This document shows positions 1,481-8,261 of a stretch of 11,336 nt of DNA, one piece after another. Every line of letters begins with the position of its first letter. Within the stretch, counting starts at the first letter, position 1. The translations under genes were made by a program, and so were the position numbers. Source of the DNA: a virus. Lineage: Duplodnaviria > Heunggongvirae > Uroviricota > Caudoviricetes. Location: the IMG/VR virus record IMGVR_UViG_3300006899_000574; one strand, written 5' to 3'. Below the pieces are notes generated by a model that saw only the letters and a program-made list of their open reading frames with translations, did no database searches and was not told the origin of the DNA.

Positions 1481-4162
1481 ATGTTTGAAAACCTCGAAGT
1501 CAAGTCCAAGTGTGCGGGGTGCGCACTTCGTAAGAACAAGAAGTTTCCCTGCGTACATGAAGCGCAGTCTCCGTGGCTGATACGTCTGGAGCGATCCCGC
1601 GCGCTGATCGTCTTCGAACAGCCCCGCACGCAAAGAGGTCAGGCCTGGGTGAAAGCCGTTGTCCAGCATATTGAACGCGGCATAGGAGTCCAGGCTGACG
1701 CCATTGTTGGTCTGGAGTGCGAGACGCGGACTCCTTCTCTCGACGAAGAGAAGGAAAGGAAGACAAAAAAACAAGACCCGGTTGAGACCCTCCCAAATCC
1801 CTTCTATCGAATTTTTCAGGCCTGTGCCGTCATCACCCCGGATATCGTGGAGAACTATGATATCGTCATCACGCTGGGCAAGGCCATCATGGCGGTAACT
1901 CGCACAGACGATCTGCTGACCTGGGAAGATTTCGCCGAGACGAATTTCAATCAAACGTTCTTCTATATAGAAGGACTCACTGCCCGCAAGCGCGTGTACC
2001 CCCTGCCTTCGGATCTCGATTTCCTGTGGAAGGACAACTTTGAGAACAACACTTTTGTGCCGCGTCAGTTCACGAAGATCAAATCGTATCTGGACGGCGG
2101 CATGCAGGAGGCCGAGTTTCCGGAGTTCAGATACGAAATTGTAGCCGACCCCAACGCATTCTTACGTGAGTGGAAAGACAATAAGCTTGAGATCGGCATC
2201 GACATCGAAACCAATGGTCTCGACCCCTTCAGAGACGGCGCTATGATCAAGTGCCTCACTCTGGCGTTTGACACCACGACGGGATACTACCTGGAGTTCA
2301 GCGAGATCGATGTCGGTCTGCTATCTGAGTTTCTGTATGGCAGAAAGCAGGTATACGCCAACGGCGCATTTGACGTGCTGTGGCTTGCGTATTTCGGCGT
2401 AAGGAATCTCGAACTCAGTGATGACGTCGTGCGACTGTTCAAACTCCTCTACTCGGAGCGCAGGAAAAACAGTATCAAGAGCCTGGCGTGGTTGATTGGA
2501 GTCGGAGGCTACGACCGCGAGCTGGAGGAACTGAAAGATGAGTATGGAGACATCGACTACTCGCAGATAGATGAGTCGGTTCTGGCTCCGTATGCCTGCA
2601 TGGACCCGGTTGTCGCGTTGCGGCTGAATCTCCTCGGGCACGAGCTGTTGAAGGGCCAGCCCGTAATCCGGCGAGCGTATCAAACCATCCTCGGCGCGTC
2701 CCCTGCCTTCCGCGATATGGAAACCCGAGGAGTCCATCTCAATACCGACTATCTTTCCAAACTCAACGCCGACACACTTGCTCAGGAACAGCAGGTGGTA
2801 GCAGAGCTGGCATCTGAGCTACAGCTTGATGTTGCCGATGTCTCATCGAATGAAAAACTCGCTTACTCCCTGGAGCACGTCGTAAGGCTCCCCGCACTGG
2901 CTCGCGTAGTGAAGGGCTACTATCAGACGGGAGAATCAATCCTGCTTCGCTGGAGCAAACAGGGACACGGAATTGCCGACAAGCTCCTCAAATACCGCAA
3001 GTTGAGCAAACTGCGGCAGGCGTTCCTCGGAGACCCAAATGGAGCGAACACCAGCTATATCGATCTCATGGGCACCGAAGTCTCCACAGAATCTGATGCC
3101 GATATAGGACTCGTGAAGAGCATACGAAGCGATGGGCTCATCCATCCTCGATATATGGATGGCATGGCGAAGTCCGGCCGCATGAAGTGCTATGGCCCCA
3201 ACATCTCCCAGTTCCCGGCTCAGAATGAAGAAGGCCGGCTGTTCAAGCCAGTGCTGGGCCTTCCGGGTGATGACTGGTATTTCCTCAACATGGACTTCTC
3301 TGGAGTACAGTTGCGCATCATCGCCGTCAAGTCCATGGACCCTGCGATGATCAACGCCTTCGTGAAGCTGAGCGGCGATCTACACAGCGTAACCGCGCAA
3401 GCCGTGTTCTTCCCCAGGATGAGTCTCGAAGAGTTCATGAAGCTCAAATCGCAGGAACCATATAAAAGCTACAGGTTCAAAGCAAAGTCGATTAACTTCG
3501 GATTTTCCTTCGGCCTGGCGGAGACAACATTCGCCGTGCAGTTACAGGATGAATGGACTGAGGAGGATCTTCACACTTACATCGAGATCAACTCTCCAGA
3601 GATCATCAAGGACAACCTGTGGCTGAGTGCATCCGCAGACATACGTGGGAAGTTCTTCTCAAAATACGCGAAGCTCCTGCCATGGATTGAAAGCAACCGC
3701 ACACGAGGGATTCGAGCGGGTTACATTGACGACGTGCATACGGGCTACAGGCGCCACCTGCCTTTCCTTCAGGTGCCGTCAAAGAAAGGCAGACGCAAGC
3801 CATACGCTCCAGGGGACGATGAGAACACCTCGCGGTTCTTCAACCTCCTGAACGTCACCACCAACACGCAGGCGCAGAGCCATGAAGCACTGCATGTCTA
3901 CAAGGCGATGAAGCGTATTCATGAGGAACTCACGACTCGCAATCTCCGATCTCGAATGTTCGCCATGATCCACGACTACCTGGGATTCTATGTCCACAAA
4001 TCGGAGATCAAGCAGGTCTACGAGATCGCCGTGAATGCCGCAGAGGACCGCTCACTGGTGGTGCCTTTTGTAGTAGAGACATCCATCGGGAAAATCTGGG
4101 AGAGCGGAGACGAGGTCACCAGAGACAACATTGATGAAGTCGCAAGAAACCTTGCGGCATGA
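1481..4162 (+). CDS. polA: Family A DNA polymerase with 3'-5' exonuclease and N-terminal UDG-like domain
   Basis: ExoI IGID(241)IE(243)TNG, ExoII NGAFD, ExoIII YACMD; SGRM...PNISQFP; motif A D(605)FSGVQLR; motif B R(665)FKAK(669)SINF(673)GFSFG; NTQAQ; motif C IH(831)D(832)Y. GGAG SD upstream. No 5'-3' exonuclease domain. Confidence 0.95.
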   Translation: MFENLEVKSKCAGCALRKNKKFPCVHEAQSPWLIRLERSRALIVFEQPRTQRGQAWVKAVVQHIERGIGVQADAIVGLECETRTPSLDEEKERKTKKQDPVETLPNPFYRIFQACAVITPDIVENYDIVITLGKAIMAVTRTDDLLTWEDFAETNFNQTFFYIEGLTARKRVYPLPSDLDFLWKDNFENNTFVPRQFTKIKSYLDGGMQEAEFPEFRYEIVADPNAFLREWKDNKLEIGIDIETNGLDPFRDGAMIKCLTLAFDTTTGYYLEFSEIDVGLLSEFLYGRKQVYANGAFDVLWLAYFGVRNLELSDDVVRLFKLLYSERRKNSIKSLAWLIGVGGYDRELEELKDEYGDIDYSQIDESVLAPYACMDPVVALRLNLLGHELLKGQPVIRRAYQTILGASPAFRDMETRGVHLNTDYLSKLNADTLAQEQQVVAELASELQLDVADVSSNEKLAYSLEHVVRLPALARVVKGYYQTGESILLRWSKQGHGIADKLLKYRKLSKLRQAFLGDPNGANTSYIDLMGTEVSTESDADIGLVKSIRSDGLIHPRYMDGMAKSGRMKCYGPNISQFPAQNEEGRLFKPVLGLPGDDWYFLNMDFSGVQLRIIAVKSMDPAMINAFVKLSGDLHSVTAQAVFFPRMSLEEFMKLKSQEPYKSYRFKAKSINFGFSFGLAETTFAVQLQDEWTEEDLHTYIEINSPEIIKDNLWLSASADIRGKFFSKYAKLLPWIESNRTRGIRAGYIDDVHTGYRRHLPFLQVPSKKGRRKPYAPGDDENTSRFFNLLNVTTNTQAQSHEALHVYKAMKRIHEELTTRNLRSRMFAMIHDYLGFYVHKSEIKQVYEIAVNAAEDRSLVVPFVVETSIGKIWESGDEVTRDNIDEVARNLAA

Positions 4163-4171
4163 TCTCCGTGC

Positions 4172-4339
4172 ATGCTATTTGACCCCGTCGCAGTGGTATC
4201 CGAACTCCGGAAACACCCCGATTTGATGCTTAACGACGACCTGTATGTCTACAGCTACGATGTCGAAACCGACGTCCTTTACGCTAGGGGAATTGCAGGC
4301 GACTGTGAGCTTGAAATCCGGGTAAGAAAAAATAGTTGA
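4172..4339 (+). CDS. Small hypothetical protein (55 aa, MLFDPVAVVSELRKHPDLML...), not in the supplied ORF track
   Basis: ATG at 4172 to TGA at 4337-4339 fills the gap between polA and the promoter exactly. Plausible composition, no clear SD. Confidence 0.55.
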   Translation: MLFDPVAVVSELRKHPDLMLNDDLYVYSYDVETDVLYARGIAGDCELEIRVRKNS

Positions 4340-4364
4340 CCGACTCCCCACCGCCTGATATAGT
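4336..4364 (+). promoter_or_regulatory. Sigma70-type promoter with extended -10
   Basis: TTGACC (4336-4341), 17-nt spacer, TG at 4356-4357, TATAGT (4359-4364). Predicted start near A4371. Confidence 0.8.
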
Positions 4365-4365
4365 T

Positions 4366-4457
4366 GCTTCAGCTGGTAGAGCGCGAAAAATTCCTGTAGG
4401 AGACAGTTACGTCATTTTCCAATGACGAGGTCGCGGGTCCGAGTCCCGCCAAACGCC
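4366..4457 (+). ncRNA. tRNA-like RNA, candidate Y RNA-like element; not a canonical tRNA
   Basis: D-loop AGCTGGTA (4371-4378) then GAGC; anticodon-like hairpin 4410-4427; variable AGGTC; T-arm GCGGG-TCCGAGT-CCCGC (4433-4449). There is a 26-nt insertion after the D-arm, no pairable acceptor stem and no CCA. It sits directly upstream of a TROVE fragment. Confidence 0.7.
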
Positions 4458-4494
4458 CCTGCTATCATACATCTCATGGGAGGAGGTTTTCCGC

Positions 4495-4704
4495 ATGGCT
4501 TCAGTCAACAAGACAGTTATCGGAGAACCTGTGGTCACACACGGTGGCACACCGGGAGCACCGACATCCAACCTCAACCTCTTGCGCAGAAGCGTGCTTT
4601 CGTGTCTGCTGTGGGAAGACGAATTCTACGAATCCGGAGAGCAGATTGCGTCACGTATTGCTACCCTGGCACAAAAATGTGACTACGAAGAGAGCCAGGC
4701 ATGA
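4495..4704 (+). pseudogene. N-terminal fragment (69 aa) of a Ro60/TROVE-domain RNA-binding protein
   Basis: THGG...LRRSVLSCLLWEDEFYESGEQIASRIATLAQK matches the bacterial TROVE N-terminus as I recall it (THEG...LRRSVLACLLWE..FYEDG..IA.RI..L). It stops after 69 aa with no continuation in other frames. Perfect SD AGGAGGT at 4481-4487. Confidence 0.8.
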
Positions 4705-5318
4705 GCGCAGAAGCGTTAGTCAATTTGTCTCACGCCTATCTGGAGCCTCACCGGCATTACCACACATTGTCGCACATCGTGTGGATGCTGGAGCGCGCCA
4801 GGCACTGGGAATTTCCCCTGACTTCCGAGCTTCTGCACGCCATCTGGTATCACGACTGTGTGTATCGCGTCGGGGTGGAATCCGGAGTGAATGAGCGGCA
4901 GAGCGTGGATAAATTTACCGCAGATTTTCCACAGGCAGAATCCCGAGAAGTGGAGCTGGCGATTCTATCGACCATCCTGCATATCCCGCTGTCATCTCTG
5001 GCGCGGTTTTTGATTGATCTCGATCTCGCGATCCTGGCAGAAGAATTCAATATCGAAAATTCTGCGCTATGTGGGAACTCCCATAAGACGCCCAGCCCAG
5101 CGTACCCCTACGACGCTTACCTCGTTGGTATCCGTAAAGAATACAGTGCCTACAATGACCGTGCCTGGATGGCGGGAAGGACCAGATGGATTCGCGGCAT
5201 GTTGAAGCGCAAACGCATATTCCACACAGTAGACGGCTTTCGCGACTGCGAACTCAAGGCCAGAGAAAATCTCGAAATGGAGTTGCGCCTGTACGAACTA
5301 CAAGCGGTCAGTGCTTGA
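4701..5318 (+). CDS. HD-superfamily metal-dependent phosphohydrolase (COG4339-like)
   Basis: AYLEPHRHYHTLSH, AIWYHD, NERQS, DLDLAIL, IRKEY, GR, IFHT and ARENL motifs; ATGA overlap with the TROVE fragment. Confidence 0.85.
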   Translation: MSAEALVNLSHAYLEPHRHYHTLSHIVWMLERARHWEFPLTSELLHAIWYHDCVYRVGVESGVNERQSVDKFTADFPQAESREVELAILSTILHIPLSSLARFLIDLDLAILAEEFNIENSALCGNSHKTPSPAYPYDAYLVGIRKEYSAYNDRAWMAGRTRWIRGMLKRKRIFHTVDGFRDCELKARENLEMELRLYELQAVSA

Positions 5319-5550
5319 CCGTGAACGAGCAGATCGCGCAAAGTCTGCGGGCGCCCTAATGCCAGGCATGAAACGAACCAAAGCATCTCCCGCAAAGAAA
5401 CCCAGGAAATCTGCGAAGAAGAAGCTCCTCCCGCCATCTCCCGAGCCTGTGTTCCAGGAATGGCCTCTTGTTCCCGCAGAGCCGCTTTCCGACTGGGAGC
5501 GCTTCTGGCTTGCGGTGTCTGACTTCTGGGAGAAACTCCGCGACCGCTGA
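5311..5550 (+). CDS. Hypothetical basic Lys/Pro-rich protein with Trp-rich amphipathic C-terminus
   Basis: ORF fills the gap up to the convergent holin stop. Start is uncertain (GTG 5311, ATG 5359 or ATG 5368). Confidence 0.55.
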   Translation: MLDRERADRAKSAGALMPGMKRTKASPAKKPRKSAKKKLLPPSPEPVFQEWPLVPAEPLSDWERFWLAVSDFWEKLRDR

Positions 5551-5856
5551 CTACTTATCCCAGGGTGCTTCCTGGTTTTCCTCTGCACGGCTTGCGTGTC
5601 GTAGAGTGGTGTCAGCTTCTCGGTGCTCGGGAGCCGTGTATTCCGGACTTCCTGGCAGTGCGCGAGCCGCGCCGTAAGTAGCGAAGTTGATGCCAATGAG
5701 TGCCAGCAAAACATACATCTCGGTGTCGCTGAGCATGTGTTGTGGGTCCCCACTGACGACGTGATAAATCATCGAGCCGCCGAGAATCACAGCGGCCCCG
5801 ATGTTCACGACTTTCATGAAAGATTTTCTGAATCCTGTTTTATGCGGTTTGCTCAA
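5551..5856 (-). CDS. Putative holin (two predicted TM segments)
   Basis: Basic N-terminus, hydrophobic VVNIGAAVILGGSMIYHVV and MYVLLALIGINFATYGAA, charged C-tail. Directly downstream of, and overlapping by 17 nt, the lysin gene. Confidence 0.55.
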   Translation of the reverse strand: MSKPHKTGFRKSFMKVVNIGAAVILGGSMIYHVVSGDPQHMLSDTEMYVLLALIGINFATYGAARALPGSPEYTAPEHREADTTLRHASRAEENQEAPWDK

Positions 5857-6643
5857 AGCTGACTCCGAGAGCCGCTGAAAACTCTTGAGTCACGATGCCG
5901 TCCTTCACTCCGCATGCCTTCACTTTCAAGAAAGTCTGCGGTCCAAACACGCCATCGGCTTCGAGCTTCAGTGCTGTCTGTAGCTTAGTTACAGCCGCGC
6001 CACGACTTCCGATGCGCAGTGCCGGCCGGGCAACCAGGTCATCGAATTCCAGCCAGAGACCGGCGTAGATTGTGTCTTCAGGCTTTGCGGCAAACCAGGC
6101 TTCGAAAGCCGCCCAGTCTGCGGAGCTACCTTTTGCAGTAGCGGGGTAGCGACTCATGTTGCCGTTCAGAGTCGTACAGCCGGCGCTGAATGGCGCATAG
6201 CCATGAAAGTTGTTGCCCACGCGACCTTCTGCGCCGTACTGGATGTAGTCGTCGGCATTGCCGAGCACGGCGTCACGAGTGCGGTGGATCAGTGTGGTGC
6301 CCTGTTGCACGAGGCCCGTATACCCCAGGTGGTTGCCGCGCACCCACATCTGTGGCTGGTATTGAGACTCGACGTAGTTGCAGTTCGACTTGCCTTGAGC
6401 TTGCTCCTCCAGGTATTTTGTATGCGGGATACTCCTCCCCAGGCCGCAAACCTTTACGCCATTGGCATCACAGCCCACCACGACGTCCATGAGGTTGGCG
6501 CCGGTATTCAAAACACGCTGGAGGTTGCCCTGCGTATCAGGGCCTGTATGTCGGAACACAACGATAGCCGGGTATCTGAGATCCAGGCAGTTGTTGGCGG
6601 CAATTTTTTTGATGAGATCAAGATTGATGTCGGAAATTTTCAT
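5840..6643 (-). CDS. Putative endolysin: YkuD/L,D-transpeptidase-like catalytic domain plus C-terminal peptidoglycan-binding domain
   Basis: NFH(147)GYAPFSAGC(156) resembles the His...S-x-G-C catalytic motif; the C-terminal LRIGSRGAAVTKLQTALKLEADGVFGPQT is a PG_binding_1-type signature. Confidence 0.75.
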   Translation of the reverse strand: MKISDINLDLIKKIAANNCLDLRYPAIVVFRHTGPDTQGNLQRVLNTGANLMDVVVGCDANGVKVCGLGRSIPHTKYLEEQAQGKSNCNYVESQYQPQMWVRGNHLGYTGLVQQGTTLIHRTRDAVLGNADDYIQYGAEGRVGNNFHGYAPFSAGCTTLNGNMSRYPATAKGSSADWAAFEAWFAAKPEDTIYAGLWLEFDDLVARPALRIGSRGAAVTKLQTALKLEADGVFGPQTFLKVKACGVKDGIVTQEFSAALGVSFEQTA

Positions 6644-7739: not shown

Positions 7740-8261
7740 ATGGAATGTTCGTTCTGCGGGAAGACCGATGGAGCCGTAAAACTCATCATACGCGGCCCCG
7801 CCGCCTGTATTTGCAATGAGTGTGTAAAGATATGTAAAGAGATCGTTGAGCACGAAAACAAAAAGGAGCAAACAGCATCCATGGAAAACCAAAACCCAAT
7901 CGACATTAGGAAAGAATATACAACCAGAGACGGTGGAAACGTCAGGATACTATGCGATGACGGCCCTGGAGACACGCCTGTAGTGGCGATTGTAGGGTAC
8001 GGACCAACCATAAGCTCTGTCGTAATGTACACCCGGGGAGGCCGTGCTGTACACCCAGATTCTCGGATTCTCGACTTGATCGAAGTCCGTAAGAAATTCC
8101 GGCGGGAAGTATGGGTGAATGTCTACCCGGAGGGTATGCATAATGGAGACATTTTAGCCTATGGTAGCAAATACGTAGCAGATCGCATGTCATCAGTCAA
8201 CGAACGACGAATAGCCTGTATTCCCGTAATCATAGAAGGCGAAGAGGGTCAGGGATTATGA
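7740..8261 (+). CDS. ClpX C4-type zinc finger protein fused to a phage domain of unknown function
   Basis: CSFCGK...[17 protein letters not shown] is the ClpX N-terminal ribbon signature; there is no AAA+ domain. The C-terminal part (YTTRDG..VRI...DLIEV...EVWVNVY) resembles recurrent phage hypothetical proteins. Confidence 0.8.

What the first reader, a model, noticed from the sequence alone, without database searches (positions are those of the whole stretch)
4336..5550. Candidate system: strong promoter, tRNA-like RNA, mini-Ro60 and HD phosphohydrolase in one phage operon
Seen: one near-consensus promoter followed, without gaps, by a tRNA-mimic RNA, a TROVE N-terminal fragment with a perfect SD, a translationally coupled HD enzyme and a small basic ORF. 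Established: bacterial Ro60 (Rsr) genes neighbour tRNA-mimicking Y RNAs and often RNA-repair genes (rtcB); some HD domains (HD-Pnk) heal RNA 2',3'-phosphate ends, though that is a different HD subfamily. Inference: a phage-reduced Y RNA/Ro60 module repurposed for RNA end healing, as a decoy for host tRNA-cleaving defences, or to interfere with the host Ro60 RNP. Simple decay is the null hypothesis.
Basis: partly seen in the sequence, partly recalled or inferred. Interest (0 to 1): 0.8.

Follow-up and report, generated by a model that had tools for sequence, protein, structure and literature searches.

The report
Relic of phage Ro60/Y-RNA module
A phage operon holds a 335-base leftover of a known RNA-protein system (a scrambled Y RNA plus the first 66 codons of Ro60) between a promoter and an HD phosphohydrolase gene. 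It is most likely a recombination scar that now serves as leader for the HD gene, not a new RNA machine.

Summary
The parts exist, but the "tRNA-mimic" is not a tRNA or an intact Y RNA. Window 4366-4461 comes from a phage YrlA-type Y RNA. It keeps a D-arm, the 5'-strand motif, the V hairpin and a T-arm, in permuted order. It lacks both strands needed for the Ro60-binding stem and has no acceptor stem. An otherwise invariant T-loop U is C.

The 69-aa ORF is the N-terminal 66 residues of a widespread phage TROVE+vWA family of about 450 aa: one helical hairpin, with no ring, no Y-RNA surface and no vWA.

The HD protein keeps every family-invariant residue and has an HD/PDEase fold. Its substrate is unknown. 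One 40%-identical relative sits between T4-type Rnl1 and Pnkp.

The closest HD relative (74%) has the same promoter and HD gene but no RNA or ORF. None of 80 viral full-length TROVE loci has this HD within 3 kb. Other short TROVE ORFs are singletons. The arrangement occurs in one phage lineage (six contigs).

One point argues for function: two copies differ by 16 synonymous and 2 non-synonymous changes. All 18 cluster in one 142-nt tract, which suggests recombination.

Verdict: decay or recombination scar about 0.6; functional mini-module about 0.2. The scan had already noted phage Ro60/Y-RNA loci on other DNA.

The parts
4336..4364 (+). sigma-70-like promoter, TTGACC-17-TATAGT with extended TG; predicted start about 4370-4372
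   Evidence: 10 of 12 matches. The -35 and flank are shared with L001. Function was not tested.
4366..4382 (+). D-arm-like element (GCTT / CAGCTGGTA / GAGC), homologous to the D-arm of phage YrlA; its 5' stem strand lies upstream of the predicted transcript start
   Evidence: L091 lacks 4366-4372.
4383..4409 (+). Junction of Y-RNA end motifs. It holds the linker GCGAAAAA, a TTCC remnant of the 3'-strand motif, TGTAG of the 5'-strand motif, and the lower-stem 5' strand GAGACAG+TTA. The partner strands (about 13-16 nt and about 11 nt) are missing.
   Evidence: Alignment to eight circularly permuted YrlAs; consensus A3.
4410..4427 (+). V (anticodon-arm-like) hairpin of YrlA
4433..4449 (+). T-arm, loop TCCGAGT; position 4439 is C where all 16 aligned YrlAs and copy L091 have T
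4450..4494 (+). Leader with SD GGGAGGAGG (4478-4486). The YrlA acceptor-like hairpin, D-arm and 3' strand expected here are absent.
4495..4704 (+). 69-aa ORF equal to residues 1-66 of the phage TROVE+vWA (Ro60-like) family plus a 3-residue tail; predicted N-terminal arm plus one helical hairpin
4701..5318 (+). HD-superfamily phosphohydrolase, 205 aa; its start overlaps the stop of the 69-aa ORF (ATGA)
5359..5550 (+). Small lysine-rich ORF (63 aa from the ATG, 79 aa from GTG 5311); not conserved in L002 or L001
   Evidence: no family hit.
5560..5583 (+). Terminator-like hairpin plus T run that closes the unit

Best explanation
Window 4366-4700 is a relic of a phage Ro60/Y-RNA cassette. It sits as an indel between a conserved promoter and an HD phosphohydrolase gene. 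It carries the junction of Y-RNA 3' and 5' parts, with the Ro60-binding strands deleted, and then the Ro60 leader, SD, ATG and first 66 codons.

Inferred mechanism: transcription from the promoter at 4336-4364 reads the RNA relic as a structured 5' UTR. Ribosomes load on the inherited strong Ro60 SD and translate 69 codons. They stop at a TGA that overlaps the HD ATG, so HD is expressed by translational coupling. The relic has no Ro60/Y-RNA activity of its own.

The working gene of the unit is the HD enzyme, a metal-dependent phosphoesterase of unknown substrate. One context hint points to RNA-end or nucleotide processing.

Shown: homology, the missing parts, the indel and the distribution. 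Inferred: promoter use, coupling, and lack of independent function.
For: 1. The ORF matches only the N-terminus of TROVE+vWA proteins of about 450 aa. No other TROVE remnant exists in the window.
2. 78 of 80 viral TROVE loci carry Y RNAs on the same strand, nearly all just upstream. The YrlA consensus has 20 of 30 covarying pairs.
3. The window element scores 25.2 bits, below all 204 listed family hits (25.5-139 bits). Only the 5' motif, V hairpin and T-arm truly align.
4. Alignment to eight permuted YrlAs shows the same two gaps each time. They remove the lower-stem 3' strand and the terminal GGTGG strand.
5. An invariant T-loop U is C at 4439. Copy L091 still has T.
6. L001 (HD 74% identical) has polA, the small ORF, the promoter and HD, with no RNA or ORF.
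7. No HD homologue lies within 3 kb of the 80 viral TROVE loci.
8. Of 164 loci with a TROVE N-terminus, only 2 outside this lineage are truncated. Nine other short forms are singleton clusters on single contigs.
9. According to PMC12135203, Y RNA binds helices alpha8-alpha10, and the N-terminal helix only locks onto the C-terminal helix. The 69-aa model is an arm plus one helical hairpin.
10. Strong SDs are usual in the family's leaders, so the perfect SD is inherited.
Against: Window and L091 copies of the ORF differ at 18 sites: 16 synonymous and 2 non-synonymous, pN/pS 0.039, P about 1e-8. Both share the same truncation. No full-length TROVE more than 69% identical to the ORF was found in 5.8 billion clusters or in the scanned metagenome contigs. 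So the peptide itself may be under purifying selection.

The ORF keeps every family-invariant N-terminal residue. The unit is present unchanged in several samples.

No expression data could be obtained. Which state is ancestral, insertion here or loss in L001, is unresolved.
Confidence: 0.6

Rival explanations
1. The 69-aa Ro60 N-terminal peptide is a functional small protein kept by selection. It would act with the co-translated HD enzyme, or as a competitor for the N-/C-terminal lock of a full-length Ro60 of the host or of another phage. The Y-RNA-derived leader would be part of the cassette.
For: pN/pS is 0.039 between two copies that share the same truncation. No close full-length donor is known. 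All invariant residues are kept. Coupling to HD is exact. The AF2 model is a confident helical hairpin, mean pLDDT 83. An independent 70-aa N-terminal ORF (P0063) lies in a 38.9-kb phage-like contig. An HD relative lies in an Rnl1-Pnkp island.
Against: All 18 differences lie in 4530-4671: third positions 16 of 48 inside against 0 of 21 outside (P 0.0015), and flanks 2 of 122. That is the signature of an imported recombination tract, and its donor may have been a full-length gene. The arrangement is absent from L001 and from all other HD or TROVE relatives examined. Other short forms are singletons with different end points. The fragment lacks every known functional surface of Ro60.
Confidence: 0.2
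2. The RNA relic works on its own as a tRNA-like decoy or processing signal, for example for anticodon nucleases, RNase P or tRNA-modifying enzymes, independently of Ro60.
For: The D-arm, the anticodon-arm-like hairpin and the T-arm are recognisable. 4373-4494 differs at only 2 of 122 sites between window and L091. Phage tRNAs and tRNA-like RNAs are known counter-defence tools (background cited in PMC11482910).
Against: There is no acceptor stem. The predicted start at 4370-4372 cuts the D-stem, and L091 lacks the D-stem 5' strand. The invariant T-loop U55 is mutated. Fold energy is ordinary. Rfam tRNA is below threshold and ARAGORN finds nothing. The low divergence of the flank fits recent recombination equally well.
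Confidence: 0.07
3. The tRNA-like stretch is the 3' half of a host tRNA gene kept as a phage attachment site, or a decayed phage tRNA gene, unrelated to Ro60.
For: 4410-4456 looks like an anticodon arm, variable loop, T-arm and 3' acceptor strand. Some TROVE genes sit next to true tRNA genes (L039, L043, L083).
Against: The Y-RNA-specific 5'-strand motif (TGTAG..CAGTTAC) precedes it. It matches L014 at 16 of 19 positions, by my own count on the sequences. The covariance model built from YrlAs hits it at E 1.4e-5. It lies at the usual distance upstream of a TROVE start codon. No integrase was found in the window.
Confidence: 0.03
4. The arrangement is an assembly chimera.
For: L091, a short 527-nt contig, joins the cassette to unrelated AT-rich DNA.
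Against: The same promoter-RNA-ORF-HD order is found in five further contigs from separate JGI, Logan and ENA samples: a 73-kb and a 6.6-kb contig identical to the window, a 75-kb contig, and two 98%-identical variants.
Confidence: 0.01

Closest known systems
Bacterial and phage Rsr (Ro60) with YrlA/YrlB Y RNAs (Chen et al. 2014, PMC4201824; Rfam RF02553)
   Same: The RNA lies directly upstream of, and on the same strand as, a TROVE reading frame. It shares the YrlA 5'-strand motif, V hairpin, T-arm and D-arm sequences. The N-terminal protein motif is the same.
   Different: The order is D-arm, then 5' motif, then T-arm, where YrlA has the T-arm before the D-arm. Both partner strands of the Ro60-binding stem and the acceptor-like hairpin are missing. 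Only 66 of about 450 codons of the protein remain. An HD gene follows in place of the rest.
Thermus phage phiLo phiRo60 with Yrl1/Yrl2 (PMC12135203; PDB 9KOP, 9L5Y)
   Same: A phage-encoded Ro60 homologue with adjacent Y-RNA-like genes, the same kind of module from which this relic derives.
   Different: phiRo60 is a complete HEAT-repeat ring plus vWFA. It binds RNA through alpha8-alpha10 and recruits PNPase. The window peptide ends after about alpha2. No sequence match to PDB chains was found.
Y RNAs in tRNA topology with open acceptor ends (L010 here; earlier scan note e1-1696948)
   Same: Same linear order as the window element: D-arm, Ro-stem motifs, V hairpin, T-arm, 3' acceptor strand.
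   Different: L010 has a 7-bp acceptor stem with CCA and a complete Ro-stem hairpin, and scores 41 bits on Rfam tRNA. The window element has neither stem.
Phage RNA-repair sets (T4 Rnl1 + Pnkp) and HD-Pnk end-healing enzymes
   Same: A 40%-identical HD homologue (P0005) lies in a phage island downstream of Rnl1 and a YAcAr SLOG gene, and its end overlaps the start of a T4-type Pnkp gene.
   Different: The window has no ligase or kinase. The HD here is a stand-alone 205-aa protein of an uncharacterised clade. Similarity to the HD of HD-Pnk could not be tested. This is one lineage only, so the link is a hint.
Bas63 gp130, a Ro60-like phage protein that counters the ppl defence (PMC11482910)
   Same: It shows that phage Ro60-like proteins can be counter-defence factors.
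   Different: By the paper's account gp130 closely resembles Ro60 in overall structure. Nothing suggests that an N-terminal 66-residue piece keeps that activity.

Membership tests
YrlA-type Y RNA (Rfam RF02553; Chen et al. 2014) | Encoded next to, and on the same strand as, a TROVE/Ro60 gene | tested here: met
   35 nt separate the element from the TROVE-derived ATG. 78 of 80 viral loci show the same linkage. Here the TROVE gene is only a 66-codon stump.
YrlA-type Y RNA (Rfam RF02553; Chen et al. 2014) | Ro60-binding stem formed by conserved 5' and 3' strands | tested here: not met
   The lower-stem 3' strand and the terminal 5' GGTGG strand are absent. Eight permuted alignments show the same two gaps. 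No such helix appears in the fold.
YrlA-type Y RNA (Rfam RF02553; Chen et al. 2014) | tRNA-like domain in the order T-arm, acceptor-like hairpin, D-arm | tested here: not met
   The D-arm (4366-4382) precedes the T-arm (4433-4449). No acceptor-like hairpin is present. The model's 3' half aligns only spuriously over the SD and ATG.
YrlA-type Y RNA (Rfam RF02553; Chen et al. 2014) | Score comparable to family members under a covariance model | tested here: not met
   Own model R1: 25.2 bits, against 25.5-139 for the 204 listed family hits and mostly 50-139 for complete YrlAs. Rfam YrlA gives no hit at E<=10, while control L030 gives 35.4 bits.
tRNA | Cloverleaf with a 7-bp acceptor stem, found by tRNA finders | tested here: not met
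   ARAGORN finds 0 genes. Rfam tRNA scores 16.3 bits against a gathering score of 29. No complement to CAAACGC lies upstream.
Ro60 / TROVE (PF05731) + vWA | Conserved N-terminal motif (T-H-x-G ... LRRSV..CLLWE..FYE.G..IA.RI) | tested here: met
   All invariant and nearly invariant N-terminal columns are kept. E is 3e-13 to a full-length member.
Ro60 / TROVE (PF05731) + vWA | Closed HEAT-repeat ring with the Y-RNA-binding helices (alpha8-alpha10) | tested here: not met
   The ORF ends at residue 69. No further TROVE similarity exists in the window. The model is an arm plus one helical hairpin. The binding site is taken from PMC12135203.
Ro60 / TROVE (PF05731) + vWA | C-terminal vWA domain with MIDAS | tested here: not met
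   Absent from the window. Most full-length relatives tested show a VWA-type Pfam hit.
HD-superfamily metal-dependent phosphohydrolase | H...HD...D metal-binding motif | tested here: met
   H21, H25, H51-D52 and D106/D108 are invariant in 24 homologues and present here. The protein matches phrog_19425 'phosphohydrolase' at 2e-24.
HD-superfamily metal-dependent phosphohydrolase | HD/PDEase helical fold | tested here: met
   The AF2 model has pLDDT 93. VIA-align gives PDE9A Z 12.6 (184 aligned, rmsd 3.6), HD hydrolase 2pq7 Z 12.6, YedJ 9.6 and YpgQ 9.5. The top 20 rows are all PDE or HD-superfamily entries. The Foldseek PDB search has no hit at E<=0.001.
HD-Pnk type RNA 2',3'-phosphoesterase | HD domain fused to, or demonstrably homologous with, the HD of HD-Pnk; end-healing activity | not testable with these tools
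   No reference sequence or solved structure was reachable. The only link is gene context in one relative.
sigma-70 promoter | -35 and -10 hexamers at 17-nt spacing that drive transcription | tested here: inconclusive
   The sequence match is 10 of 12 with extended TG. Such a match is expected once by chance in the region.

The most novel reading that the evidence does not exclude
A minimal cassette would be kept by selection and move between phages as a counter-defence or RNA-repair unit. It would consist of a Y-RNA-derived leader, a 69-aa Ro60 N-terminal peptide under purifying selection, and a translationally coupled HD/PDE-like phosphoesterase. The peptide would either target the HD enzyme or poison Ro60 rings of the host or of competing phages.
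Probability: 0.17. Interest if true: 0.65.

Novelty: new member of a known kind. Interest (0 to 1): 0.3.

Why it matters
As it stands, this is a worked example of how phage mosaicism leaves a partial Ro60/Y-RNA cassette in front of an unrelated gene. It also shows how an inherited SD and start codon can be reused as a coupling leader. It warns against reading tRNA-like or TROVE-like fragments as systems.

If the purifying-selection signal holds up, it would be the first sign that the N-terminal lock helix of Ro60 has a life of its own. The HD clade, uncharacterised and once found between Rnl1 and Pnkp, is a reasonable candidate for a new phage RNA-end or nucleotide phosphoesterase and is worth an assay in its own right.

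Tried and rejected
- Pfam, NCBIfam, PHROGs and PADLOC on the 69-aa ORF and the small ORF gave no hits. Sequence search of the PDB with the ORF and with HD gave nothing useful.
- Rfam on the whole window gave nothing at E<=1.
- DNA search of the INPHARED phage collection with 4100-5900 and with the L091 flank found no match.
- IMG/VR scans with the HD protein, the PolA C-terminus and two RNA patterns found no relatives. A GTDB genome scan with the relic pattern found none.
- No genome is held for the window, and the 73-kb source record could not be searched. A full-length Ro60 elsewhere in this phage is therefore not excluded.
- Complex prediction on HD plus the 69-aa peptide returned 'no answer' (score 0.13, mark 0.32). 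This is not evidence either way.
- Bacterial contexts of two HD homologues were uninformative.
- The AlphaFold Swiss-Prot search gave only generic HD domains, such as the GlyRS beta subunit, GlnD and YedJ.
- No paper mentions COG4339.
- Two reviews (PMC5062991, PMC10870794) are not held.
- The idea that L001 keeps a tiny YrlA remnant (GTAGCCTTGTTGC) was dropped, because model R1 gives no hit there.
Full report
**Setting**

The window is part of a phage-like contig. It carries a family-A DNA polymerase at 1481-4162. Most other ORFs have no family match. It is 100% identical to part of a 73,074-nt JGI metagenome contig and to a 6.6-kb contig from a second sample. No genome is held for it.

**What is at 4336-5550**

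- A sigma-70-like site, TTGACC-17-TATAGT with an upstream TG, lies at 4336-4364. It matches 10 of 12 positions. One such site is also what shuffles of the region give.
- A 69-aa ORF runs 4495-4704. Its SD GGGAGGAGG ends 8 nt before the ATG.
- The TGA of that ORF overlaps the ATG of a 205-aa ORF at 4701-5318.
- A lysine-rich ORF ends at 5550. A terminator-like hairpin follows at 5560.

**The 69-aa ORF is a Ro60 N-terminus**

Pfam finds nothing, even at E 10. An exhaustive phmmer search of 1.84 billion representatives gives 519 hits. The ORF aligns end to end with residues 1-66 of proteins of about 430-490 aa, best full-length E 3e-13.

Ten such proteins all carry Pfam TROVE, and most also have a VWA-type domain. 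In a 23-sequence alignment the ORF keeps every invariant N-terminal residue and departs only in its last few residues.

The family is common in viruses: 575 IMG/VR stretches encode it. tblastn with full-length members finds no other TROVE piece in the window.

AF2 models the peptide as an extended arm (residues 1-25) and one helical hairpin (26-38, 48-61), mean pLDDT 83. In the solved phage phiRo60, Y RNA binds at helices alpha8-alpha10, and the N-terminal helix merely interlocks with the C-terminal helix (PMC12135203). The fragment therefore lacks the ring, the RNA site and the vWA domain.

**The RNA is a broken Y RNA, not a tRNA mimic**

- ARAGORN finds nothing.
- Rfam tRNA reaches 16.3 bits against a gathering score of 29.
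- Rfam YrlA is silent even in a 221-nt search at E<=10. It does detect a control YrlA in L030 at 35.4 bits.
- The fold is no more stable than shuffles, z -0.89.

Upstream of the full-length TROVE genes I found the classic YrlA layout of Chen et al. 2014 (PMC4201824). It runs: 5' strand GGYGTAG..GGTTACTTC, V hairpin, T-arm, acceptor-like hairpin, D-arm, 3' strand GYTTGTTCCCC.

Sixteen of these RNAs give a consensus with 20 of 30 covarying pairs. A covariance model built from them finds 204 Y RNAs, all on the TROVE strand, in 78 of 80 viral loci. Scores run from 25.5 to 139 bits.

The window scores 25.2 bits, E 1.4e-5. Only the 5' motif, the V hairpin and the T-arm truly align. The model's 3' half is stretched over the SD and the start codon.

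The D-arm lies upstream of this piece. Its flank, GGTAGAGCGCGAAAA, matches the 3' part of the YrlAs in L081 and L059.

I aligned 4366-4461 to eight YrlAs that I had circularly permuted (D-arm to 3' end, then 5' end to T-arm). The same picture came out each time: collinear, with two gaps. One gap of about 13-16 nt removes the 3' strand of the lower stem. The other, of about 11 nt, removes the terminal CC, the spacer and GGTGG.

So the element equals the junction between two tandem Y RNAs, or a permuted Y RNA like the one in L010. The L010 RNA has a 7-bp acceptor stem, CCA and a complete Ro-stem hairpin. In the window, exactly the Ro60-binding strands are missing, and the 3' acceptor-like strand CAAACGC has no partner.

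The T-loop reads TCCGAGT. The second base is T in all 16 aligned YrlAs and in copy L091. The predicted transcript start at 4370-4372 would also cut off the 5' strand of the D-stem.

**The unit is an indel and is lineage-restricted**

HD homologues are few (30 hits). L001, whose HD is 74% identical, has the same polymerase, the same small upstream ORF (65% identical) and the same TTGACCGA promoter box. The HD gene then follows about 50 nt later, with no RNA and no ORF.

L002 and L177, about 98-99% identical to the window, have the same arrangement as the window. L002 diverges completely just after the HD stop, so the small basic ORF is not a conserved member.

None of the 80 viral TROVE loci has a homologue of this HD within 3 kb. 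Of 164 loci with a TROVE N-terminus, only two outside this lineage are truncated. One is split by an insert of about 700 nt and one ends at 116 aa. Nine other short N-terminal ORFs from the protein search are singleton clusters on single contigs, with different end points and unrelated tails. There is no mini-TROVE family.

**The one signal for function**

L091, a 527-nt ENA contig, encodes the same truncated ORF with the same tail and the same junction to HD. It differs from the window at 18 ORF positions: 16 synonymous and 2 non-synonymous, pN/pS 0.039, binomial P about 1e-8.

No full-length TROVE more than 69% identical to the ORF exists in the 5.8-billion-cluster collection or in the scanned metagenome contigs.

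However, all 18 differences fall in 4530-4671. Third positions differ at 16 of 48 sites inside the tract and at 0 of 21 outside (P 0.0015). The 122 nt upstream differ at only 2 sites. The window and L002 are similarly mosaic: about 4% divergence in HD against 0.3% upstream.

This pattern is that of a recombination tract, and its donor could have been an unsampled full-length gene. I therefore treat the signal as real but ambiguous.

L091 also joins unrelated AT-rich DNA at window 4372|4373. That is either a chimera or a second genomic context. The join coincides with the predicted transcript start, which I cannot explain.

**The HD protein**

- It matches phrog_19425 'phosphohydrolase' at 2e-24.
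- It keeps all invariant residues of its family: H21, H25, H51-D52, N64-E65, D106/D108.
- AF2 gives pLDDT 93.
- Foldseek on the PDB gives no hit at E<=0.001.
- The exhaustive VIA-align search puts cyclic-nucleotide PDE catalytic domains and HD hydrolases on top. PDE9A has Z 12.6 (184 aligned, rmsd 3.6), 2pq7 has Z 12.6, YedJ 9.6 and YpgQ 9.5.

For a helical protein these Z values show the HD/PDEase fold and nothing finer. The substrate is unknown.

One context hint exists. P0005, 40% identical, lies in a phage island made of Rnl1, a YAcAr SLOG gene, three small ORFs, the HD gene and a T4-type Pnkp gene. That island is seen in four samples of one phage. Two bacterial contexts were uninformative.

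**How it most likely works**

The relic is carried as the 5' part of the HD mRNA. The inherited Ro60 SD and ATG load ribosomes, which terminate on the HD start codon. Strong SDs are the rule in this family's leaders. HD's own upstream sequence is a poor SD, and so is L001's, so coupling may raise HD output.

This explains why the start, frame and stop are intact. It does not explain amino-acid conservation, which is why I keep a 0.2 rival.

Parsimony slightly favours insertion of a 335-nt fragment, one event. The alternative, decay of a complete module, needs several deletions here plus total loss in L001. The direction is not settled.

**Comparison with what is known**

Phage Ro60/Y-RNA modules are known (PMC4201824; PMC12135203; PMC7824862). 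A Ro60-like phage protein counters the ppl defence (PMC11482910). Earlier notes of this scan describe many such loci on other DNA.

This locus is a degenerate member of that kind. It fails the defining tests for YrlA, for tRNA and for a functional Ro60.

**Verdict**

Interest is low to moderate. It comes mainly from the unexplained selection signal and from the uncharacterised HD clade.

Noticed in passing
L039:2130-2202 (+): A 73-nt match to Rfam tmRNA (65 bits, E 6e-23). It covers only the tRNA-like ends, with the 310-nt mRNA and pseudoknot part absent, and it ends in CCACCA. This 'mini-tmRNA' lies about 800 nt upstream of a phage TROVE gene.
   Followed up: no
L010:89-219 (+): A Y RNA in true tRNA topology: 7-bp acceptor stem with CCA, D-arm, a Ro-stem hairpin inserted before the anticodon-like arm, and a T-arm. 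It scores 41 bits on Rfam tRNA and lies 48 nt upstream of a full-length TROVE gene. Two YrlB-like hairpins follow the gene.
   Followed up: partly
L003:1376-5235: A phage RNA-repair island: T4-type Rnl1, a YAcAr SLOG protein, three small ORFs, an HD protein 40% identical to the window's, and T4-type Pnkp (kinase + HAD phosphatase). The end of the HD gene overlaps the Pnkp start.
   Followed up: partly
L091:1-182 and window 4372|4373: A divergent copy of the cassette joins unrelated DNA of about 30% GC exactly at the transcript start predicted from the -10 box. This is either an assembly chimera or a second genomic context.
   Followed up: partly
L001:1-1326: The PolA of the closest relative carries an intein-like insert (weak Pfam Intein_splicing hit, E 1.9e-4, below the curated cut-off). 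I did not see this insert in the window's PolA, but made no formal comparison.
   Followed up: no
L107:2501-3991: A TROVE gene interrupted by an insert of about 700 nt between residues of about 165 and 169, with both halves in the same frame.
   Followed up: no
L009:3020-3653: The 1-kb gap upstream of the closest full-length TROVE relative holds three YrlB-like hairpins (Ro-stem only) and no tRNA-like YrlA.
   Followed up: no
window 7740-8261 (+): A 173-aa phage protein whose only recognisable part is an N-terminal ClpX-type C4 zinc finger (Pfam 3.6e-13).
   Followed up: no
window 4701-5318 vs L002: Mosaic divergence within one phage species: about 4% in the HD gene (20 synonymous, 4 non-synonymous) against 0.3% in the 680 nt upstream. 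The homology breaks completely right after the HD stop.
   Followed up: partly
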